Assembly: GCA_001661245.1 (NCBI GenBank)
Contig: KV454012.1
Coordinates: 1,136,848 to 1,200,847, forward strand
Direction of reading: 5' to 3'
DNA: 64,000 nucleotides
DNA from: Pachysolen tannophilus NRRL Y-2460
Taxonomy: Eukaryota
Under the pieces are notes generated by a model. The model was not told the origin of the DNA and searched no databases. It saw only the letters and a program-made list of their open reading frames with translations. This document shows, one piece after another, positions 17,275-44,785 of the stretch. Made by a program: the position numbers and the translations under genes. Each line of letters opens with the position of its first letter. The stretch's first letter is position 1.

Positions 17275-18785
17275 ATGGCAAACTTATTGCCAATTCCATC
17301 AGCTGAAGCATTAAATTTTGAACCTCAAGAACAAGAGAAACGGGAGTCTACAGATCAAATCATACAACCATTTGATAAATTATGTAGGATTTCAGTTGCT
17401 TCTGAGGCATCTCTGATATCAAGTTCAGAGATATCTCTTGTTTCAGAATCTATGTTTAGAGTTGAAAATAATCATGTTGTTAATGATGATGATGATGATG
17501 ATAATAATGATGGTAATAATGGTTATTCTAATGGTAAAGAATTGGATACTAATATAAATACGGATGAATTAGAATTACCAGATTTAAATGATGCAAGTTT
17601 TATTTCAATGGATAATTCAATTACAAGGCATTCTGAAGATCGTTTAAATGATTTAAGTTTAAGAGCAATAGATTCTGATTATTATAATTATGCTGAACAA
17701 CTGTGTTCAGATCAAGTAAATGAAAAAAGAAGTAGTGATTATTTTTTTGCATTGGATAATTCAATGTCATTATTACAAACTCCAAAGAAAAGGGATACTA
17801 AATCAAATTCTAAAAAAAAAATGAAAACAAAACTTTCATCATCATCATCATCAACATCAACTTCATCATCATTAAAAAAGGAAAAAAAATTTCAAAAACA
17901 TTAAATGATAATAATATTACAATTGCAACAAATTCAAATACAATAATAAATACTGGAACTGATGTTAATTATATGGCTAATGCAAGATTAAGATCAATAA
18001 ATAAAGCTGCAGATGAATTACATCAACAACATAGACAAAGTTATAGTTATGGTTATAATTATGATAGGAGAATTTCTAATAGTACAACATTAGTAGATTT
18101 ATCTTCTAGTAATAGGTTTAGTTTTCCTGGAAAATTAAGATTACGTGGAAGTATTTCTACCAATAAAAGGGATACAGTCTTATCATTGGATAATAGCCTT
18201 GCTGCAATGTCATCTTCACTGCGAACTCTTAATCCATATCCAACAGGATTTATTCCTAAAACACAAGATCCAGAATTTTTTTATTCATTAACAGCATTAA
18301 ATAGATTTGGAAAACCATTTTCTTTTGAAACTTTAAGAAATAAAGTTGTCTTGGTTGTTAATGTTGCATCAAAATGTAATTTTACTCCACAATATATGGA
18401 GCTTCAAAAATTATATGAAACTTATAAAGATAAAGGATTAATGATATTAGCTTTCCCAACATCACAATTTGGTTTAAATCAAGAATTTGATAAAATGGGT
18501 GAAATTTTTCAATTTTGTAAAACAAATTTTGGAATTACTTTCCCTATAATGCAAAAAATTAAAGTTAATGGATCAGATGCACATCCAGCTTATACTTATA
18601 TGAAATCAAGAAAATCAAGAGCTTTTGGATTAAGAAGAGTTACATGGAATTTTGAAAAATTTGTGATTAATAGAAAAGGAGTTGTAGTTAAACGATATCC
18701 ATCATATAAGAAACCAAAATCTTTAAAAAACTTGATTGAGAAATTGCTAAATGAAAAACCAAAAATCCCTTGCGAAGAAGAGTAG
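17275..18785 (+). CDS. Glutathione peroxidase paralogue with long low-complexity N-terminal extension; two ORFs joinable by a -1 shift at A8 (17882-17889)
   Basis: C-terminal GPx domain (VNVASKCNFTPQY, NQEF, FCKTNFGITFP, WNFEKF). The downstream frame is open from 17814 and overlaps the end of ORF 17275-17904. Confidence 0.7.
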
Positions 18786-19145
18786 AGATTATCTAAAAGA
18801 GAATGGCTTTGTAAAATTGTTTTTTTTTTTTTAATTGTTGCGTCTTTTTAAATTTCTATCGATTTATTTTTTTGATTATTATTTGTGTATAATCGAAATG
18901 GTATATAGTGGATATGAATAAATTATCATATCTTCTAGGTTTAGCTAAAACATCTACAAGTAGTTATACTACTCCATAATTAAGTGAATTTTACCTTTTC
19001 ATTAAGCTAAATAAAATTATAAAGAAATTATAAATAAATTTCTGAAAATACAAATTAAAAAAAAAAAGAAAAAGAATTATTATTATTATTAATATCAATT
19101 ATAGCAAACATAATATATTTTAAACAGTTTTACTTCATTTTGCTC

Positions 19146-19631
19146 TTATTTTGCTAACAATTCCTTGATAGTTGATTCAAAAGATAAAGGAGTAGTAATT
19201 GATGAATATCTTTGAACGACATTTCCTTCTTTATCAATAAGGAATTTTTCAAAATTCCATTTAATACCTCTGAAACCCAAGATACCAGCTTTTTGAGATT
19301 TTAAATATTGATAAACTGAATTAGCTTCAGCACCATTAACTTTAGTTTTCTTCATAATAGGGAAAGTAACACCATAATTTAATTGACAAAAATTTTGAAT
19401 TTCTTCCTGATTTTCAAATTCTTGATTAGCAAATTCCGAAGTTGGGAACCCCAAAATAATAAAACCTTGATCTTTATATTTACCATATAATTGTTCTAAT
19501 TCCTTATATTGTGGTGTAAACCCACATTTTGATGCAACGTTAACAATTAATACAACTTTACCCTTTAATTGTTCAAAAGAAAACGGTTGGTCCTTTTGAT
19601 CTAAAGCAGACAATTCATAAAATTTCGACAT
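19146..19631 (-). CDS. GPX2: Glutathione peroxidase-like thioredoxin peroxidase (Gpx2/Hyr1 type)
   Basis: VNVASKCGFTPQY, FCQLNYGVTFP, IKWNFEKFL; 161 aa. Next to ISW1 as recalled for S. cerevisiae GPX2. Assignment as HYR1 is also possible. Confidence 0.85.
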   Translation of the reverse strand: MSKFYELSALDQKDQPFSFEQLKGKVVLIVNVASKCGFTPQYKELEQLYGKYKDQGFIILGFPTSEFANQEFENQEEIQNFCQLNYGVTFPIMKKTKVNGAEANSVYQYLKSQKAGILGFRGIKWNFEKFLIDKEGNVVQRYSSITTPLSFESTIKELLAK

Positions 19632-35292: not shown

Positions 35293-36663
35293 TTATTCCC
35301 AATCATCGTCATCATCATCATCATCGTCATTATCACCAGCACTGGCACTAGCACTGGCACTATTTCCCTCTTCATTGTCCTTTTCTCTCTTTGTAGCAAT
35401 TACTTCTAAAGTTGAGCTATTAGCAGACAGTAAGTTATATGTCACCTCACTTGAAGTTCTAGATTGGTTTTGAGCTTCCAGTTTAAGGTTAGTGTTGGCT
35501 TCATTTTCACCTTCTTCACCTCCTTCAACCTCTTCACCTTCTTCGCCTTCTACTTCGTCTTCATCATCGTCCCAATCAAATTTTTCTTCAATATTATTAA
35601 GTTTACTACTTTCCAATAATTTCTTTCTTGTTACTTCTTCTTTATCAAACAAATCTTTGTTATAATAATATAAAGTCCAAAATTCTGTATCTGAGATTTT
35701 TTCTGGAACAATTAAATTATGTAAATTCAGTAAATCATTATTTTGTGATAATAATTTTTCAGTTTCATCTTTTTTAATAGAAATATTTGATGAAAATTCT
35801 TGAAATTTTTTCAAATCTTTAATTTTATTTTTATTCAAATACAATTCTTGAGAATTATTCAACTCGTACAATTGTTGTTCTGATCTCGAGGCATAAACTT
35901 TCCTAGTCTGAGCCAGAGTCAGTGCCAGTGCCCTTGCATCTAAATTTGAAGGAACGTTAAATAACATTTTCGAATCCTTATCATCTATTTCATCGTCATC
36001 ATCATCATCATCATAATCATTATTATTATTTGAATTTTCCTTCTTGTCAGCACCAGACGATGATGCAATAAGTGGTGACTCGATTGTGACAACATCTTTT
36101 AAATAAGAACCAAATTTTGAAGCAAACCCACCAACTATTTTTTCAACTTCATCTAAATCATCATCTAATTCGTTCATATAACTACTAGTTGTAGTAGATA
36201 ATAAATCCAACATCTTACGGGCTTCAGCTTTACTTTGGGTAAACCTCTGAGCTAACAGTTCTTGTCTTGATGCCTGTTCTGAAGATGATACTTCTAAACC
36301 TCGCGTCTTATCATCTTTTTCTTCCTTAATCGATAATTTTTCTAATCTATCTTTAGTTTGATTAACATAATCTGGTAAATTTTTTTGAAAATTTGTTAAA
36401 AATCCATTAAATGAACCCCAATTTTTACTAGTATTTCTTTCAAAATTATTATATAATTCATCAACTTTATTTTCAATATTTTCAGCAACTTTTTCAGTTT
36501 TCAGGTTAATATCATCTCCACCACTTGTACCACCACAATTTTCAACTCCACCTCCATTTTCCGACTTGACATTCGTCAAAGTTTCAACCGAGTTATCTGA
36601 ATGCATAAGACTTGATTCTTCCTTCGCTGAAGAACTCGGATTGATTTGATCATAAATATCCAT
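35293..36663 (-). CDS. DOS2: BSD-domain protein
   Basis: LLNLHNLIVPEKISDTEFWTLYYY BSD motif followed by FDWDDDEDE and an acidic tail ending DDWE. Lies in the OCA6/DOA4 block. Confidence 0.8.
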   Translation of the reverse strand: MDIYDQINPSSSAKEESSLMHSDNSVETLTNVKSENGGGVENCGGTSGGDDINLKTEKVAENIENKVDELYNNFERNTSKNWGSFNGFLTNFQKNLPDYVNQTKDRLEKLSIKEEKDDKTRGLEVSSSEQASRQELLAQRFTQSKAEARKMLDLLSTTTSSYMNELDDDLDEVEKIVGGFASKFGSYLKDVVTIESPLIASSSGADKKENSNNNNDYDDDDDDDEIDDKDSKMLFNVPSNLDARALALTLAQTRKVYASRSEQQLYELNNSQELYLNKNKIKDLKKFQEFSSNISIKKDETEKLLSQNNDLLNLHNLIVPEKISDTEFWTLYYYNKDLFDKEEVTRKKLLESSKLNNIEEKFDWDDDEDEVEGEEGEEVEGGEEGENEANTNLKLEAQNQSRTSSEVTYNLLSANSSTLEVIATKREKDNEEGNSASASASAGDNDDDDDDDDDWE

Positions 36664-37930
36664 TTTGAAATTTAATTTCTTTTTTAAAAAAAAAATTGAA
36701 ACGAGATTAACGCTTATATATAATTTTTTAAATTATCAATTTGGCTTGTTGTTTCTTCTTTTGGTCCACTAAGTGAACCACTTTGATTTTCGTGTGTAAA
36801 TAAATATATTTGTATATAAAATGCACTACTTTTGTTGTAATTTTTCACTCCAGTTTAAAATTCTGGGGTAAATCAATGGTTCAGAAGAGATTTAAAAAGA
36901 GACGAATAGTTATATTAGAATACTGGTGGGAAAGAGATAAAAGAGTGATTATGATTTGAAAAAAGAGAGAAACTAGAGTTTGTTATTTAGTTATGCTTAT
37001 TGTAGTTTTTGTTTAACGTCTAGGCCTGTGCTTTGGGCATGTGCTTAGGCCTAGGCTTGAGCCAGGGCCAGGGCCCCGGGGGCCAGAGCCAAACCCAAAC
37101 CCAAATGGGTGAGTTACTTCAGAGATATTTAAGGTAGGTATTAATTCATTTAATACCCCTAATTCTTAACTGGTTTGTAACCAATAGTTTATATATTAAT
37201 ATAGACTAAACTATTGTAAAAATATTTTTCTCTTTCGATTGATAATGATAAGACATAGTTTATTTCGGCTTTGGGGGTAAACTGGGAAGTTCCAAAAAAA
37301 AAAAGAAAAAGAAAAAAGGTTTCAAACGAGCAGTTCTATTGTTGTCCCGCACGATTATGCAAGCTAAAAGATAATAATACCCCCTTTTTATAACTTCAAT
37401 AACTTGAAAAGGTTTGTTATATTGGAGAGTAGTAGGTAGATGATTGTAGCTTTTTAAAATGACTAGATACTAAGAGACTTTGAAAAATTGGGTCAAGGTT
37501 GTTGTAATTTTTTGTTATCGATTAAATTTCTGAAATTGTGATCTGGATCAACATGTAAAATTTTATACATTATAACATCAAGTGAACTTTTTTTTTTCGT
37601 TTTCTTTTATATACATGGTTTGTACTGAAAAAAAGTGGACTTCTTAATAAAATAATACTTGTATCTAGTGTTGTTTTTTCTTTGCATTTGAAATTCTCGT
37701 CTCAGTGTGTAGTTATATCTTAGTAATTCTCACCGAAAACTCTACCATTTGGGATAAAGTTACCTGTGATATTGCATGGTTGATACTAACCAGGCTACAA
37801 AGAATCAAGCTATTTTTTTTTTTCAAAAGAATCAAAGATTGGTTTTTAGCAAAAAAAAAAGTTACTACATTTTATTTAAATAAAAAATATTGTTTTCATA
37901 TATTTAAAATATAAATAGCGAAGTGCAGTT

Positions 37931-39079
37931 CTAGCTTTCTGACTGTTTTTTTGACAGCTTTTGCAGAAACATTTCATCAATTTCTTTCTTATTAGCCTTG
38001 GCTCTTTGAGCTCTCCAAATTAAGTACTCTCTACAAGTTGTGACTGGATACTTTTGAGGGTTTTCTTCTGAGACACAAGTTGGAAGGGGATTTAAAACGT
38101 AATTTGGATTAAATCCAAAAAAGAAAGGAATGGAGTATCTTGTGGTAGCTGAATTATTTACCACTCTATGAATGGTGGATACAAATTTATCATTGGTCAA
38201 TCTCATTAAGCAATCGGCAACATTAACAACTAAAGCCCCTTCAATTGGTGGGACTTTAACCCAAAAATTCCTTTTATTTAAGACTTGTAAACCTGAAACT
38301 TTTCCTGGGTTAACTAATGTAAATATCTCAAAATCAGAATGAGCACCAATACCATTTTGCTCATCTTCAGTTACATCTTGTTGTGGGTAATGGAGAATCC
38401 TCATACATGCAGCAGGAGTAGTAACTGCTTCATCAAAATAGTCTTCTGGTAAATCCAATGCTAAGGCTACAATTTTAATTAAGGTCCTTGATACTTTTAA
38501 ACATTCTGAATGATATTTGAACATGTTTTCTTTAAAACCAGGAAGGCTCGAAGGCCACAAATTTTTAAATTCAGTACAATCACTGTTCTTCTCTGGTTTT
38601 AATGGATCAAAATCTCTTTCATAAGTAAAATTAAAAGCTTCCATCAAATCATTATACTTTCTATTTCCTCTATTATACCTACCAAAAGGGTGATAACCTT
38701 GGTACTCACTATCTGGAAGCAAACCAGTATAAACTTCCATTTTTTGATCTTCAGTTAAAGAATGGAAAAATTCTTTAGACCATTTAAAAGTATTCTCAGA
38801 AATTTCATCTGGTATACCATGGTTAATTGCATAGAAAAATCCAACTTTAGTACATACATCAAAGATATTTTTTGCAACTTTCTTCCTTTTTGCCAAGTCA
38901 GAAGAATACATATCTGCCAAATCAACAATTGGAATTGAGTCAAAATCATCTTCAAAACTAACTGAAGAATTAGAATCTGTATGAATGACCTTGCCGTTAT
39001 CCAAGTAAATTGTGGATTGGTCATGAGAGACATCCTTATTCTCAATTTTGGCAAAAGTAGTAGCAGTAGTCATTTCCAT
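37931..39079 (-). CDS. 2-oxoglutarate/Fe(II) dioxygenase (IPNS/DIOX_N family)
   Basis: IPIVDL..VGFFYAINHGI, RILHYP, HxD (GAHSDFE), GLQV, distal His (STIHRV) and RxS motif (RYSIPFF). ATG at 39079 or 39073. Confidence 0.92.
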   Translation of the reverse strand: MEMTTATTFAKIENKDVSHDQSTIYLDNGKVIHTDSNSSVSFEDDFDSIPIVDLADMYSSDLAKRKKVAKNIFDVCTKVGFFYAINHGIPDEISENTFKWSKEFFHSLTEDQKMEVYTGLLPDSEYQGYHPFGRYNRGNRKYNDLMEAFNFTYERDFDPLKPEKNSDCTEFKNLWPSSLPGFKENMFKYHSECLKVSRTLIKIVALALDLPEDYFDEAVTTPAACMRILHYPQQDVTEDEQNGIGAHSDFEIFTLVNPGKVSGLQVLNKRNFWVKVPPIEGALVVNVADCLMRLTNDKFVSTIHRVVNNSATTRYSIPFFFGFNPNYVLNPLPTCVSEENPQKYPVTTCREYLIWRAQRAKANKKEIDEMFLQKLSKKQSES

Positions 39080-39447
39080 AAAAAACAACTAGAAAAGTAG
39101 ATTGGACTAGATAAGCTAAATGGAAAGTTTTTGCTGATTTTCAAAAAAATAGTGAATTACAATTCACAATTGATATATATCTTGAATTTTCTTTTCTTTT
39201 TTCCTTTTTTTTTTTGACCAGTCACTAAAGAGGTCTTTGCCGAAATATAGTTAAAATAAGATATTTCCAATATGGTACAGATTTAGATATGATATTAACA
39301 TTATATTTACAAAAGGTTTACCACGGACTGCCAAGATCACATGGTATGAATGATGGACTAATAATTGGATACAGTCTTTAACTCAATTTTAAAGATAATT
39401 AATTATACATGGAAGAATTCAAACTCTTCTCTCAACTGAACCCTCAC

Positions 39448-39468
39448 CTTATCTTATCTTATCTTATC
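39448..39468 (-). promoter_or_regulatory. Four tandem overlapping GATAAG sites in the shared dioxygenase/transporter promoter
   Basis: CTTATCTTATCTTATCTTATC. Further GATAAG sites at 39110, 39785 (reverse) and 39977. Confidence 0.6.
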
Positions 39469-40079
39469 GAGTTTATCTTTTGATTCATTTATTGACACGT
39501 CGGTGAAGAGTACAACTGGTTCCGATGGGTCTATATTGTTGAACAGTACCTTCCACTTTCTCGGGAAAACCAGTGAGCTATCTATCTAGTGAAACTAGTG
39601 AAACTGGTAAGGCTAGTAATACTGGTAAAGCTAGTAAAGCTATTAACGGGTCATCTAGACATGCTGTCTTTGGTTTCGGTATACATGCCGACGGAGACGG
39701 TGCTCGAGAGCTGGTTTCAGCCGGCATACGTCTTTCTTCGTGAATCCAGTCGCAATCACCCAAACGCATAAAGCATCTTTCCTTCTTATCTCCTTCCTCA
39801 TTGATCATCATGCACCTTTAATTGCAAAAAGAAGATAATGAAATCTTCATTACTCTGTATGTGACTTCTACTTAAAATAGCATAGGAAAGGGTATTAAGC
39901 GACAAGATGCATGAGATAGATAAAAACTATGTTTTCATTTTTTTTTTTTTTTCAGGGTCAAGATGAAGTTTTGGTTGATAAGCAATGGTGGATGTATATA
40001 TAATGAGAAAAAAAAGCATTAAGCGTGTTTGATATTTGATTAAAATGTTATCGGGAAGGAAATCTTTGGGTTTTGGATA

Positions 40080-41585
40080 ATGTCTTTGATGGAGAAAGAA
40101 ACAGGCGAAGTTTCAGTTAAACCTGTACTTACAGATGAGATTTCAGGTAAAGAAGGTACAAACGGTTTATCTGAGGCACCTGTAGTGCACTTGAAGAAAT
40201 GGAGATGGAAATCTCCAGAAGTTCAAATGATGTGGTGTTCCTTTCTTGTTGCGTGTACAGCTGGGTTATATGTTGCAATCAATGGTCTTAGAAACAATGG
40301 TAAAATTAACAGTTCAACTTATACGCAAAACACTGATATTTCAACTGCAATAGGTAACGCTGTTTGGGTACTTTCTTCTTTGGTAGCAGGTGCAACGCTT
40401 AATTCTCTTGGCCCAAGATGGAGTATGGCAATTGGAGCTTTAGGGTATCCAATGTATATTAGTGGATTTTGGTTTTATGGTTCAGTAGGAACAGAAGGTG
40501 CAAAATACTGGATCTTTTTGGTGAGTGGGTTAGGTGCTGGACTTTTATTTGGGTTTTTATGGGCAGTTCAAAATTATCTTGTCAATTGCTATGCTAAAGA
40601 GAATGAAAAGGGATTATATGTGGCTCTCAATTGGTCAATCATTAAATCTGGTGCCGTTGTAGGATCGCTTATTGGGCTTTGTCTTAGTACAAACCTGACT
40701 TCAAATTCCGAAGCAGCTCCTTGGTATCTTTATTTGATCTTTATCTGTATCAATGTTGTTGCCATATTTGGGTCATTTTTTCTATGTGATCCAAGTGAAG
40801 TAAGAAGAAGTGATAATTCTAAAGTGGCTGTTTTCAAAAAACGTACCCTCAAAGAAGAACTTATAGTATTGAAGAATGCATTAATGGAAAGAAGAATTCA
40901 ATTAATGATTTTACCATTATTTTGTGCAGAAGTAAGTTTGGCTCCATGTTCTTCTGCTAATGCCTTCATTTTCAATGTTAGAACAAAATCTCTTAATAAT
41001 TTGTGCTACTGGATAGTACAAATACCTGGTGCTTTTATTCTTCACAAAATCTTGGACCGTAAAGGTGTTCCTAGAAAGACGAGAGCTTATTGGGGGTTAT
41101 TATATATATATGTTTTCATAACTGCAACTTTCCTCGGTTTTTACATAATGTACGGTGCCTGGGGAGGTGAACTGGCTTTTAGTAAAAGCTTATCATCCGA
41201 CGAATATCCAGATATTGATTGGACTGAGAAAAGGTATGCTGGCCCATTTATCTGGTACCTATGTTGTGGTGTTAGTTTCGGACTGTTATTGAACTACAGA
41301 TTATGGCTCATAGGGGCAATGAGCAATGATCCTAAAGTTTTGGGAACCTATTCAGGATTAGTTCCAGCATTCCAACTGGCGGGTATTGCATTGGCATTTG
41401 GAATTGCTTCAACCACTATTTCCTATACAAGTATGTTTGCCATTTGGTGGGTTTTACTTATGGTTTCTCTTCCATGTATGTTTTTAGTCATAAAGTATTA
41501 TGTCACTGATACTAATTACTTCAAAGAGGATGATGTCTACGTACCTGCTGAATATATAGAACAACTCAAGGTTAACGAAACTTGA
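40080..41585 (+). CDS. MFS transporter, UNC-93-like/DUF895 type
   Basis: About 12 hydrophobic segments. LNSLGPRW..GALGYPMY, GFLWAVQ..Y..ENEKGLY, VRRSDNSKV, FNVRTKSLNN, WLIGAMSND and VTDTNYFKEDDV are typical of fungal UNC-93-like transporters. Confidence 0.85.
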   Translation: MSLMEKETGEVSVKPVLTDEISGKEGTNGLSEAPVVHLKKWRWKSPEVQMMWCSFLVACTAGLYVAINGLRNNGKINSSTYTQNTDISTAIGNAVWVLSSLVAGATLNSLGPRWSMAIGALGYPMYISGFWFYGSVGTEGAKYWIFLVSGLGAGLLFGFLWAVQNYLVNCYAKENEKGLYVALNWSIIKSGAVVGSLIGLCLSTNLTSNSEAAPWYLYLIFICINVVAIFGSFFLCDPSEVRRSDNSKVAVFKKRTLKEELIVLKNALMERRIQLMILPLFCAEVSLAPCSSANAFIFNVRTKSLNNLCYWIVQIPGAFILHKILDRKGVPRKTRAYWGLLYIYVFITATFLGFYIMYGAWGGELAFSKSLSSDEYPDIDWTEKRYAGPFIWYLCCGVSFGLLLNYRLWLIGAMSNDPKVLGTYSGLVPAFQLAGIALAFGIASTTISYTSMFAIWWVLLMVSLPCMFLVIKYYVTDTNYFKEDDVYVPAEYIEQLKVNET

Positions 41586-41812: not shown

Positions 41813-44785
41813 CTAAACACGAGTATAAAATAAAACATATGCATTTACATTAACGACTTTTTCCTGAAAATCACAATTCTTGTAAACCTTTGTATCATCG
41901 AAGTAACACCATCCATTTACCATTCCACTTTTATTTACTCTGGTCCCTTTATCGACATATGCTGTATAATGACCATTGATCAAGTTACCAAAATGATTGA
42001 CTACTCCGTATAGTTTATAATCAAATGGCGGATTCTGTCCTCTCTTAGGTAACTTTTCCAATAACTTCTTATCTCTTTCACTTTCCACTGAGGGCCAATA
42101 TTTAGTTAATGACAAAAATTGAGTATAATGAACGAATGAATTCAATTTTGAAATATAGTTTCCGAGTTTAAACCTTTTCAAAACAATAATCAAATTCTTT
42201 GGGAGTCTCGAAATTCTCAAGGTCTTTATTGTTTCTTGTTTTTTGTTACAATGTGGACAAAACCATTTGTCATCTCCTTTTAAGATTTCAGAACTACAAA
42301 ATTCATCAAAGCATTTTTCCAAGGAGATTCCTTCCGAAACTTTTGCACGAGGAATAGGTAGACTCAAAGTACTAAAAGAGTTATATGTGGTCGATGTCGA
42401 ATTACAGACAGTACATTGCAATCTCGAAAGATACTGACCTTGAAACAAGTCAACAATGCTGCTGAAATTATTTTCTAGATATCGTTCCCACTCTATGGTT
42501 GACGCTAATCTTATCGACATCTTTTCACGCAGTTCCTCTTCATTTTTGCCTAACTCAGGTAATCTTTCATGATTTCCGTTCTCATTTAGATCTTCATGAA
42601 GTGCATCCAATATGTAATTCAAAAACTCAGAACAGTCTTGCTGCTCTAATGATTTAAAATTAGGGTTCACTGAACCTACAACGTGCTTAAATTGTTTTGG
42701 AATGATGTATTTGACACCTCTAGTCTCTGTTGTCGACTTTAGGTACATTGAATATACAACTTCATAAAAAGCTTTTGCAATGACCCCTTTAGAACCCAAT
42801 TTATTATCAAAATTAATATGTTTTTCATAATTGTCTAATAAGAAAAACTTAACCAAACTTTTTGAACCAATAAGACATTGCAATATACAGTTCATATAAC
42901 AAGTATTTCCCAAATTAGAGATCCCAGTTATTATTTCCAAATTCCTTTCCTCAAATTCTTGGACAGATTGAATATTTTTGTTAGTGATAGAATCAGTTGG
43001 CTTAGCTGAAAAAGAATAACCTTGTTGTGGTTGTGATTGATTATTGAAATTGTTGCTTATCAAAACTGGAGAATTTTTTTTGATCGTAGATTGTGCAATC
43101 ATATCTTTATCACTATTCCAATCATTATTTGAAAATTTAGATGATGATGAAGACGGTACCAAAACTGAATGTGAACCATTCTTCCAAGAGGAATTCAAAA
43201 AATCTGTATAACTTTTATTGTAGATTTGGGAATTTTGCAGCAGAGCTTTTACTTTATCTGAAACGCTATTCCCATTTGTCGAGACCACTCTGGAAGGCGA
43301 GACTGATCGAGATTTATCGAGCACTTCCACCATACCACTTTTTGCAATAACTCCAATATTAGAAGCTATACCTCCGACACCGTATGTTGCTATCCAAGCC
43401 TTTAAACCGCCTTTTAGTAACACTGGATCTTTTTGTAATGGCTTCCCTGAGTTTTTATTAATCAAAATATCAAACAAATTAAAAATTCCAGTTTTGTAAT
43501 TGTTTTCAGTAACAGTTTCAGAATTCCAATCGTAAATCACAATCAATTCAAATAAATTTCGATTTTTGAATAACGTAATTTCATGCTCTGAAGAAGTGGC
43601 CATCGATAAGTTTTCAATATCAAGACAAGAAAAACTCTGACTTACAGTCAGTGGATCAATATGCAACAATTGTGTGCTATTCGAAAAATAAATGTGCTTT
43701 TCATCAAATGCTGCTTTAGACCGATAGTCAATACACAACATAGATTTTGGATTCATGGAAACTAAATCGTTTAGCTCTTTAGGAAGTAGAGTAGAAAATG
43801 ACGAGCTATCACCACCATTTCTTCTTTCAGATGGAAAATTATTCTTCACTATAGGAAAAAGCGATTGTGATGTTGGTGATAAACTTAATCTAGTAGTATT
43901 CAGATGCAAAAATGCCGGTTGTTGTTGATGTTGCTGTTGTTGTGGTGGTAATGGTGGTGATTTACTACCAATGAAATTATTAGCAGTAGGTAACGAACGA
44001 CTGCTATTATTAAAACTTCTTGCGACTGGGCTCCCACTACGTGGTATGGAAATAGCATTTGCGTTATTGTTATTGAAAGTAGGTAACAAAGATGACGCAG
44101 ATGATGTAGACGAAGAAGAAGATTTTGGAGAAGGCAAGTGCGTATAGAACCCAGCCTTACTATCATTATTATGAATATTGTTATTGGGCGTAGCAGAAGA
44201 AAATGATAACGGACCTTTCAACTTCTGAAACCTCGATAACAACTTATCATTTTTATTTTTCAACTCAATATGGTCCATTATCTCTTGGAAATATATTTTA
44301 TCATCCGACAAACATTCAACCAAATGTTTATATAACTTGTTTTCATTTTTGAAAATTTCAAAGTTATCGACCGAAGTCGGTAACAACTGTTCTATAATCA
44401 TTTTGGAAACTGTATAGAACATATATATGGACTCAAAATCTACTTGATCTTCATCATTTTGTTGATTTTGATATATTCTTTCATTCTTTTGTACCAAGTA
44501 TTCATCTATTAATTTCTTAAAATCGTTATAACTTTCTTGTGATTTAGTCAAGTAATATACTGATATATCAGAGAAAAGAGATTTCTCATCTTCATCGTTA
44601 GCGATGGATACAACAAGTTCATTAGCTAACGTGTTCAATTCTGAAATCGATTTAAGCTTTTTCTTAATAGTGGTATTAATGTTTGAGTCAAAATCATTAC
44701 CTACTTTCTCCGTACTAATAATTTTACTTTTATCGTGATCTATCATCGCTGTTATCCTCCCATTGTTGATCGAAGACAATGGCAT
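41813..44785 (-). CDS. DOA4: Rhodanese-domain ubiquitin-specific protease (Doa4/Ubp5 family)
   Basis: Rhodanese-like IDYRSK..FDEKHI..LIVIYD..LLKGGLKAW, Cys box TGISNLGNTCYMNC, QQDCSEF, His box HFGNLINGHYTAY. Position near DOS2/DDI1 supports DOA4/UBP5. Ubp7-like identity is not excluded. Confidence 0.75.
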   Translation of the reverse strand: MPLSSINNGRITAMIDHDKSKIISTEKVGNDFDSNINTTIKKKLKSISELNTLANELVVSIANDEDEKSLFSDISVYYLTKSQESYNDFKKLIDEYLVQKNERIYQNQQNDEDQVDFESIYMFYTVSKMIIEQLLPTSVDNFEIFKNENKLYKHLVECLSDDKIYFQEIMDHIELKNKNDKLLSRFQKLKGPLSFSSATPNNNIHNNDSKAGFYTHLPSPKSSSSSTSSASSLLPTFNNNNANAISIPRSGSPVARSFNNSSRSLPTANNFIGSKSPPLPPQQQQHQQQPAFLHLNTTRLSLSPTSQSLFPIVKNNFPSERRNGGDSSSFSTLLPKELNDLVSMNPKSMLCIDYRSKAAFDEKHIYFSNSTQLLHIDPLTVSQSFSCLDIENLSMATSSEHEITLFKNRNLFELIVIYDWNSETVTENNYKTGIFNLFDILINKNSGKPLQKDPVLLKGGLKAWIATYGVGGIASNIGVIAKSGMVEVLDKSRSVSPSRVVSTNGNSVSDKVKALLQNSQIYNKSYTDFLNSSWKNGSHSVLVPSSSSSKFSNNDWNSDKDMIAQSTIKKNSPVLISNNFNNQSQPQQGYSFSAKPTDSITNKNIQSVQEFEERNLEIITGISNLGNTCYMNCILQCLIGSKSLVKFFLLDNYEKHINFDNKLGSKGVIAKAFYEVVYSMYLKSTTETRGVKYIIPKQFKHVVGSVNPNFKSLEQQDCSEFLNYILDALHEDLNENGNHERLPELGKNEEELREKMSIRLASTIEWERYLENNFSSIVDLFQGQYLSRLQCTVCNSTSTTYNSFSTLSLPIPRAKVSEGISLEKCFDEFCSSEILKGDDKWFCPHCNKKQETIKTLRISRLPKNLIIVLKRFKLGNYISKLNSFVHYTQFLSLTKYWPSVESERDKKLLEKLPKRGQNPPFDYKLYGVVNHFGNLINGHYTAYVDKGTRVNKSGMVNGWCYFDDTKVYKNCDFQEKVVNVNAYVLFYTRV

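What the first reader, a model, noticed from the sequence alone, without database searches (positions are those of the whole stretch)
37931..41585. Divergent 2OG-Fe(II) dioxygenase + UNC-93-like transporter module inside a conserved gene block: candidate nitrogen-scavenging system
Seen: an intact dioxygenase (HxD..H, RxS) and an MFS transporter share a 1-kb divergent promoter with at least 7 GATAAG sites. Established (recalled): DOS2 and DOA4 are immediate neighbours in S. cerevisiae, and MAG1/OCA6/DDI1/DOS2/DOA4-UBP5 form one ancestral block. GATAAG clusters mark nitrogen-catabolite-repressed genes. This enzyme family includes thymine 7-hydroxylase and amine/amino-acid hydroxylases. Inference: a co-regulated import-and-oxidise unit for an unknown N-containing substrate, inserted here or lost elsewhere, possibly shared with or acquired from filamentous fungi.
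Basis: partly seen in the sequence, partly recalled or inferred. Interest (0 to 1): 0.72.

Follow-up and report, generated by a model that had tools for sequence, protein, structure and literature searches.

The report
Yeast nitrogen-scavenging oxygenase–transporter gene pair
A budding yeast carries a head-to-head iron/2-oxoglutarate oxygenase and transporter gene pair that is also clustered in two distant yeasts and looks built to import and break down an unknown nitrogen compound when nitrogen is scarce.

Summary
An intact DIOX_N/2OG-Fe(II) oxygenase (37931-39079, -) and an UNC-93/MFS transporter (40080-41585, +) share a 1,000-bp spacer with 7 GATAAG (0.68 expected); 4 form one tandem array. 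In this CUG-Ala yeast genome, 3 or more GATAAG occur before 5 of 12 ammonium or urea-type transporter genes and before 1 of 127 background genes. Close relatives of both genes lie 2-3 accession numbers apart in Wickerhamomyces anomalus and Ogataea polymorpha, with 1-2 unidentified genes between. In published data the linked O. polymorpha oxygenase ranks 19th of 5,513 genes induced in nitrogen-free medium (about 300-fold), although that medium also lacks sulfur and vitamins. Acquisition from filamentous fungi is not supported: the yeast oxygenases lie outside the filamentous clade (AU p = 0.006). Best reading: an old, patchily kept, GATA-controlled import-and-hydroxylate module for an unknown organic nitrogen source. 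It is not the genome's thymine-hydroxylase-like or NGT1-like gene; both lie elsewhere. Oxygenase-permease pairs are common here (5 of 9 paralogues), so the kind is known. The pairing of these two subfamilies and the substrate were not found described.

The parts
37931..39079 (-). Fe(II)/2-oxoglutarate dioxygenase, IPNS/DIOX_N fold, 382 aa (380 from the second Met); member of an uncharacterised fungal subfamily
38333..38341 (-). H247-S-D249 iron-binding motif
38168..38170 (-). H304, distal iron ligand
38132..38140 (-). R314-Y-S316, 2OG C5-carboxylate motif
   Evidence: T7H Arg286/Ser288
39080..40079 (.). 1,000-bp divergent spacer: 7 GATAAG, 15 HGATAR; single copy in the genome; no Rfam match
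39448..39468 (-). Tandem array of 4 overlapping GATAAG, about 370-390 bp before the oxygenase start; (GATAAG)x3 occurs at only 3 places in the genome (backward control: 7 matches)
39785..39790 (-). GATAAG, 295 bp before the transporter start
39977..39982 (+). GATAAG just upstream of the transporter's TATA-like box
39110..39115 (+). GATAAG 31 bp before the oxygenase start, downstream of its TATA-like box; may be non-functional (inference)
39677..39700 (.). CGG-N8-CCG inverted and CGG-N3-CGG direct triplets, possible Zn2Cys6 activator sites; weak (3 of 65 background promoters have both kinds)
39174..39180 (-). TATA-like element about 95 bp before the oxygenase start
39997..40003 (+). TATATAA about 80 bp before the transporter start
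40080..41585 (+). UNC-93/DUF895-type MFS transporter, 501 aa; rare clade, separate from the NGT1-like paralogue
35293..36663 (-). Left flank: BSD-domain gene (DOS2-like; name recalled); not part of the module
41813..44785 (-). Right flank: ubiquitin hydrolase of USP8/15/4 type (DOA4/UBP5-like; name recalled); not part of the module

Best explanation
A nitrogen-catabolite-repressed scavenging module. When good nitrogen runs out, Gln3/Gat1-type GATA activators bind the shared spacer and switch on both genes (inferred), perhaps with a substrate-sensing Zn2Cys6 factor (weak). The UNC-93-family carrier imports a small polar organic nitrogen compound (inferred). The Fe(II)/2OG enzyme hydroxylates it, most likely at a carbon bonded to nitrogen, so that the hemiaminal falls apart to an amine or ammonium plus a carbonyl, and the nitrogen is assimilated (inferred from family chemistry). 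The 1-2 extra genes in the Wickerhamomyces and Ogataea clusters would be the downstream enzyme or the regulator. My rough odds for the substrate class: a sugar-like nitrogen compound (amino sugar, glycosylamine or iminosugar) 0.3, because the only characterised fungal relative of the carrier that I found is the GlcNAc transporter Ngt1; an N-heterocycle 0.25; an N-alkyl amino acid or amine 0.25; other 0.2. The module is old in budding yeasts, moves as a unit and is often lost. Shown: the genes, motifs, GATA enrichment, linkage by accession number, and induction of one relative. Inferred: everything about transport, chemistry and which factor binds.
For: GATAAG: 7 against 0.68 expected. Background: 91/29/6/0/1 of 127 promoters have 0/1/2/3/4 sites. 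Ammonium and SSF/DUR3-type transporter genes: 5 of 12 have 3 or more (Fisher p = 7e-6 for the 11 counted first; the 12th has 2). Three AreA/Gln3-type single-finger GATA factors are encoded. W. anomalus: ODQ61446 (oxygenase) and ODQ61444 (transporter), both on a 2,230,146-bp contig. O. polymorpha: KL936_004362/004365, KL905_004271/004274, KL937_003631/003627-8 and OBA16930/OBA16932. OPOL_43259 is rank 19 of 5,513 in NaKG versus YPD, mean log2 -8.27, beside DUR1,2, GAP1 and DUR3 (PMC5720833 S1 Table; matched to OGAPODRAFT_43259 by number and description). The transporter OPOL_16380 rises 3.8 log2 on RME1 overexpression, in a list with DAL4, DAL5, DAL1, GAP1 and YNR1. The oxygenase is sulfur-rich (4.2% Cys+Met; relatives 3.3-5.0%), unlike the paralogues L093 and L099 (1.1%, 0.8%), and the spacer has no CACGTG, Met31-type or SreA-type motif.
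Against: NaKG lacks sulfur, vitamins and inositol too: JLP1 twice, a TauD gene, SEO1 twice, INO1 and THI7 are in the same top 25. The transporter is not in that top-25 list, the full table is not given, and the RME1 list also holds sulfur genes. The induced O. polymorpha gene is a paralogue of older split, not the nearest orthologue (AU p = 0.008 against grouping it with the query). The O. polymorpha transporter is frameshifted in 3 strains, including the one assayed, and whole on 8 contigs. In a second W. anomalus assembly the two accessions are 66 apart. The oxygenase subfamily is far wider than the transporter clade (61 rows against 8), although the transporter searches were lossy. Seven of 12 nitrogen-transporter promoters lack 3 sites, and a two-finger Sfu1/SreA-type factor that could read GATA sites is present. 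Gene orientation and distance in the other yeasts were not seen.
Confidence: 0.65

Rival explanations
1. The pair is a functional unit but answers to another shortage (iron through a Sfu1/SreA-type GATA repressor, sulfur, or general starvation), and its substrate is used for carbon, sulfur or a cofactor.
For: A two-finger GATA factor is encoded (L045/L046). NaKG induces sulfur and vitamin genes as well. The enzyme needs iron.
Against: No ATCWGATAA, CACGTG or Met31-type motif in the spacer; the protein is sulfur-rich. In this genome 3 or more GATAAG go with nitrogen transporters, while the sulfur-poor oxygenase pairs have 0-1.
Confidence: 0.15
2. A detoxification or secondary-metabolite unit: the oxygenase modifies a plant toxin or an own metabolite and the MFS protein exports the product.
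For: The closest solved relatives include tailoring enzymes (SpoC, TropC, TraH). Many hosts are plant- or wood-associated fungi (names). W. anomalus WICANDRAFT_99915 shifts about 2-fold under 12% ethanol (PMC9664796 supplement row).
Against: No synthase gene among the window's Pfam-scanned ORFs. GATAAG enrichment and induction beside DUR1,2 and GAP1 fit scavenging. The characterised fungal relative of the carrier, Ngt1, is an importer.
Confidence: 0.1
3. The genes are relic neighbours with separate roles: only the oxygenase is nitrogen-regulated and the transporter is decaying.
For: Transporter frameshifted in 3 O. polymorpha strains. Oxygenase widespread without a detected partner. Accessions 66 apart in one W. 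anomalus assembly.
Against: Linkage kept in three yeast lineages at 40-61% protein identity, apparently in different neighbourhoods. GATAAG and TATA-like sites on the transporter's side too. Both trees place the query nearer Wickerhamomyces than the linked Ogataea copy.
Confidence: 0.1

Closest known systems
Thymine 7-hydroxylase (N. crassa T7H, PDB 5C3P; PMC4787775, passages read)
   Same: Same fold; iron triad, 2OG residues (Arg190, Tyr194, Arg286, Ser288 equivalents), Phe292, Glu122 and an aromatic residue at Tyr217 are kept.
   Different: Distant match (E 2.6e-28). Asn87 is Tyr and Asn294 is Gly here. A much closer T7H relative (E 3e-68) lies elsewhere in the genome, beside an NCS1 permease (L092).
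EFE-related IPNS-family oxygenases: reconstructed EFE ancestor (9OVH), PaIPNS (6JYV), plant homoarginine-6-hydroxylase Din11 (PMC12329707, PMC11018352; passages read)
   Same: Best PDB matches (E 1.9e-45 and 1.1e-40). Din11 gives a precedent for hydroxylation next to nitrogen followed by spontaneous release of a nitrogen compound.
   Different: PaIPNS has no known substrate. No direct comparison with Din11 was run. The query's subfamily has its own conserved residues (T118, P122, N150, Y153, N-terminal L-x-N-G).
Ngt1, the GlcNAc transporter of the fungal NAG cluster (bioRxiv 2025.04.14.648653, passages read)
   Same: Same UNC-93/MFS family. Ngt1 is an importer of a nitrogen-bearing sugar.
   Different: The genome's NGT1-like gene is a separate paralogue (31% identity) beside NAG1- and DAC1-type genes (L100). 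The query falls in another clade (SH-aLRT 100).
Permease plus oxygenase scavenging modules (A. nidulans hxn cluster with hxnY, recalled; Seo1/Jlp1-type sulfur modules; yeast DAL genes under NCR, recalled)
   Same: Transporter beside a catabolic oxygenase under nutrient control. 5 of 9 paralogous oxygenases in this genome have a Pfam-confirmed permease next door.
   Different: Different transporter family and oxygenase subfamily. 'hxnY' on some relatives is an automatic label and was not tested.

Membership tests
IPNS-fold Fe(II)/2OG dioxygenases | DIOX_N plus 2OG-FeII_Oxy domains above Pfam cut-off | tested here: met
   83.3 and 81.4 bits against cut-offs 27.3 and 23
IPNS-fold Fe(II)/2OG dioxygenases | HxD...H triad and RxS motif | tested here: met
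   H247, D249, H304, R314 invariant in 43 of 43; S316 in 42 of 43
IPNS-fold Fe(II)/2OG dioxygenases | 2OG-coupled oxygenase activity | not testable with these tools
   needs an assay
Thymine 7-hydroxylase | Asn87 and Asn294 contacts to the pyrimidine ring | tested here: not met
   Tyr126 and Gly322. The closer paralogue L092 also lacks both, so this test is soft.
Thymine 7-hydroxylase | Being the genome's closest T7H relative | tested here: not met
   E 2.6e-28 against 3.2e-68 for L092
Thymine 7-hydroxylase | Phe292/Tyr217 sandwich and Arg190 | tested here: met
   F320, F250, R227; common across the fold, so not diagnostic
EFE / homoarginine-6-hydroxylase | Arginine-binding pocket residues | tested here: inconclusive
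   True EFEs match only weakly (E about 7e-8); no structural model was obtained
UNC-93/DUF895 MFS transporters | PF05978 above cut-off | tested here: met
   46.3 bits against 22.9; Atlas neighbours are UNC-93/DUF895 clusters
NGT1 GlcNAc transporter orthologues | Same clade as NGT1 and placement in the NAG cluster | tested here: not met
   Separate clade; an NGT1-like paralogue sits with NAG1- and DAC1-type genes
Nitrogen-catabolite-repressed genes | Clustered GATAAG in the promoter | tested here: met
Nitrogen-catabolite-repressed genes | Induction on poor nitrogen | tested here: inconclusive
   A paralogue in O. polymorpha is induced about 300-fold, but in medium lacking other nutrients too; no data for this species
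Nitrogen-catabolite-repressed genes | Dependence on Gln3/Gat1 | not testable with these tools
   candidate factors exist
Horizontal transfer from Pezizomycotina | Query nested among filamentous sequences | tested here: not met
   AU p = 0.006 against placing the query in the filamentous clade

The most novel reading that the evidence does not exclude
An undescribed route for stripping nitrogen from a sugar-like compound (amino sugar, glycosylamine or plant iminosugar). A Ngt1-family carrier feeds a 2OG oxygenase that cleaves a C-N bond. The 3-4-gene cluster has moved as a unit within and possibly between yeast orders, which would explain why both gene trees join this CUG-Ala yeast with Wickerhamomyces and not with the linked Ogataea copy.
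Probability: 0.17. Interest if true: 0.72.

Novelty: new member of a known kind. Interest (0 to 1): 0.45.

Why it matters
It would give a first function to a fungal oxygenase subfamily spanning yeasts, plant-associated ascomycetes and brown-rot fungi, and to a branch of the UNC-93/DUF895 carriers for which I found no substrate. It would add a nitrogen source to the list that industrial yeasts can use. The test is cheap: O. polymorpha is tractable, the oxygenase is among its most starvation-induced genes, and natural strains differ in whether the carrier is intact.

Tried and rejected
Identity of the intervening genes: not found. Paper search by locus tags gave 0 papers. Supplements of PMC12289573, PMC13602539 and PMC3866509 held nothing. 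PMC9664796 lists only the oxygenase and is sorted by P value. Neighbouring OPOL numbers gave YKL077W-like, GCY1 and a mannosyltransferase, none named as the intervening gene. The metagenome scan returned 5 distant loci (31-38% identity, GC-rich where printed, apparently bacterial) with no fungal context. No RNA holder listed; this says nothing about expression. No structural model was obtained, so no fold search was run. No solved structure matches the transporter profile. NCBIfam: no hit. Rfam: no hit. Tight genome-wide GATAAG-triplet patterns were not informative (8 matches against 6 for the control; loci not followed up). Colletotrichum oxygenase and transporter accessions are not adjacent, but that transporter is outside the orthologous clade. 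A C. immunda oxygenase to pair with PV07_04085 was not among the hits seen. Grouping the query transporter with Ogataea is not rejected (AU p = 0.063). The 77-aa and 92-aa ORFs at the locus were taken as incidental and not tested. The idea that the enzyme is the fungal deoxynucleoside 2'-hydroxylase (recalled, from Neurospora and Rhodotorula) was set aside because neither genus is among the named hits. Searches that found no description of the pair: (open-licence library only), and the scan's notes.
Full report
Observation. The window comes from a budding yeast that reads CTG as Ala: NCBI table 26 reproduces the database proteins of both genes exactly, tables 1 and 12 do not. A 382-aa ORF (37931-39079, -) carries DIOX_N and 2OG-FeII_Oxy domains, and a 501-aa ORF (40080-41585, +) carries UNC-93 and MFS_1 domains. 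H247-x-D249, H304 and R314 are invariant in 43 of 43 aligned relatives, S316 in 42. GC and GC3 of both genes lie within the window's range. One contig in each of runs X1 and X2 bridges the flanking BSD gene, both genes and the flanking ubiquitin hydrolase; the four runs are one sample, so this only argues against a misjoin. The flanking Pfam domains fit MAG1, OCA6, DDI1, DOS2 and DOA4. Those names and the S. cerevisiae order are recalled. From recall DOS2 and DOA4 are convergent there, whereas here both lie on the minus strand, so the junction has probably been rearranged.

Promoter. The 1,000-bp spacer has 7 GATAAG against 0.68 in 2,000 shuffles, none reaching 7. Four overlap in one tandem array, leaving 4 separate places (9 of 2,000 shuffles reach 4). 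To calibrate, I took 40 evenly spaced 10-kb stretches of the genome. Of 127 upstream regions, 91/29/6/0/1 have 0/1/2/3/4 sites; of the 65 that are 700 bp or longer, 43/16/5/0/1. Of the 4 ammonium transporters and 8 SSF/DUR3-type genes, picked by family, 5 of 12 have 3 sites; Fisher p = 7e-6 for the first 11 against 127, and 1.4e-4 against 65. Two of these promoters are shared with a urea-carboxylase-type gene and an M20 hydrolase. So the signal is specific but not sensitive. Three AreA/Gln3-type factors and one two-finger Sfu1/SreA-type factor are encoded (type names recalled). The spacer lacks CACGTG, Met31-type and ATCWGATAA motifs, holds one TCACATG and one TGCACC, has TATA-like boxes on both sides and weak CGG-triplet sites. 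The oxygenase is sulfur-rich (4.2%), unlike paralogues L093 and L099 (1.1% and 0.8%).

Linkage elsewhere. The closest relatives of both proteins are from W. anomalus (61% and 54%): ODQ61446 and ODQ61444, both on a 2,230,146-bp contig. In a second assembly the accessions are 66 apart on contigs of equal length, which I cannot explain. In O. polymorpha (58% and 40%) the tags are 004362/004365, 004271/004274 and 003631/003627-8 in three strains, and OBA16930/OBA16932 in NCYC495. Linkage rests on accession order; I saw no DNA from these yeasts, so orientation, distance and the 1-2 genes between are unknown. Model numbers near OPOL_16380 belong to genes unlike this window's, and a Cyberlindnera copy is mis-fused to RSC1; both hint that the module has moved. 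The O. polymorpha carrier ends at the same frameshift in 3 strains and is whole on 8 contigs.

Expression. PMC5720833 (passages and supplementary tables S1 part 1 and S5 part 6 read): OPOL_43259 ranks 19 of 5,513 genes induced 2 h after transfer to nitrogen-free NaKG, mean log2 -8.27 (YPD:NaKG), beside DUR1,2 (20), GAP1 (7) and DUR3 (11). I equate it with OGAPODRAFT_43259 by number and description; that protein is 99% identical to P0003. NaKG also lacks sulfur and vitamins, and sulfur genes fill part of the same list. The table gives only the top 25 and a few chosen genes at the induced end, so the carrier's response is unseen. On RME1 overexpression the carrier (+3.8) and the second oxygenase copy (+4.2) rise with DAL4, DAL5, DAL1, GAP1, YNR1, SEO1 and JLP1. 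The full RNA-seq tables, which I could not see, bear directly on the claim.

Phylogeny. The oxygenase search found 1,742 hits, of which 120 were listed. I built a tree from 80 of them plus 2 paralogues (quick method): 61 rows form one subfamily (SH-aLRT 99) of yeasts, Pezizomycotina, Lipomyces and Gloeophyllales. The 11 budding-yeast-type rows lie outside the filamentous group. On 30 rows, forcing the query into the filamentous clade is rejected (p = 0.006), as is grouping it with the linked Ogataea copy and C. boidinii (p = 0.008). It groups with Wickerhamomyces, Cyberlindnera and a second Ogataea copy. The carrier forms a clade of Ogataea plus (query plus (Wickerhamomyces plus an unnamed row)), near Cladophialophora immunda and apart from the NGT1-like paralogue; grouping it with Ogataea is not rejected (p = 0.063). 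Early duplication of the module with differential loss is the simplest reading. An old yeast-to-yeast transfer is not excluded, nor is a very early transfer into the yeast ancestor, since the root is unresolved. The two word-based carrier searches were lossy (searches missed rows that were in the query alignment), so its rarity is a lower bound.

What it is not. T7H matches weakly and two ring-reading asparagines are replaced; a much closer T7H relative lies beside an NCS1 permease (PMC4787775 passages read). The NGT1-like gene lies in a NAG cluster elsewhere. The best PDB matches are a reconstructed EFE ancestor and PaIPNS, which has no known substrate. No structural model was obtained.

Mechanism and verdict. 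Most likely a GATA-activated import-and-hydroxylate module for an organic nitrogen source (0.65). Hydroxylation next to nitrogen with spontaneous release is inferred from Din11-type chemistry, and a sugar-like substrate only from the carrier's kinship with Ngt1. The design is ordinary for this genome: 5 of 9 paralogous oxygenases have a Pfam-confirmed permease next door. The new points are this subfamily pairing, its conservation in three yeast lineages and the starvation induction of a relative. Six library searches (listings and abstract starts only) found no description; subscription journals are not covered. One earlier scan note describes a separate sulfur-type pair in this genome; my sulfur-content numbers agree with it. 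Interest 0.45; new member of a known kind.

Noticed in passing
L091, L092, L097, L098, L099 (and L093): Five of 9 paralogous DIOX oxygenases sit beside a Pfam-confirmed permease (NCS1 twice, SSF twice, MFS once), several near contig ends. L091 also has a cytochrome P450; L097 an amidase. The neighbour in L093 had no Pfam hit at 1e-8.
   Followed up: partly
L101:4388-8093: A second UNC-93 paralogue, close to the NGT1 clade, with 3 GATAAG upstream, lies beside a Gfo/Idh/MocA oxidoreductase and a nitronate-monooxygenase-family gene at a contig end; possibly another amino-sugar or nitrogen module.
   Followed up: partly
L092:1181-4545: T7H-like oxygenase (E 3e-68 to N. crassa T7H) beside an NCS1 permease and near a fungal transcription factor, but with His and Ser in place of Asn87 and Asn294.
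   Followed up: partly
window 41283-41285 (transporter codon 402): One of the transporter's 4 CTG codons aligns with Leu, Met or Ile in 7 of 7 relatives, another with Ala in 5 of 6; the first could be a relic of an older reading. One codon is weak evidence.
   Followed up: partly
P0019, P0035, P0037; P0009, P0011, P0014, P0021, P0052: Lipomyces oxygenases nest among Pezizomycotina sequences (SH-aLRT 96), and Gloeophyllales basidiomycetes hold members of this otherwise ascomycete subfamily; candidate transfers, not tested.
   Followed up: no
P0357, P0358, P0360: The O. polymorpha transporter is frameshifted at one place in 3 strains, including the laboratory strain NCYC495, and whole in others.
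   Followed up: partly
window 37022-37107: GC-rich, partly palindromic stretch upstream of the BSD gene in an otherwise 29% GC spacer; no Rfam match.
   Followed up: no
window 17973-19631: Two convergent glutathione-peroxidase genes side by side.
   Followed up: no
L103:1022-8683: Urea-carboxylase-type gene divergent from an SSF permease (3 GATAAG), followed by a LamB/YcsF gene.
   Followed up: no
L074:1616-3208: The only background gene with 4 GATAAG upstream is an uncharacterised MFS transporter.
   Followed up: no
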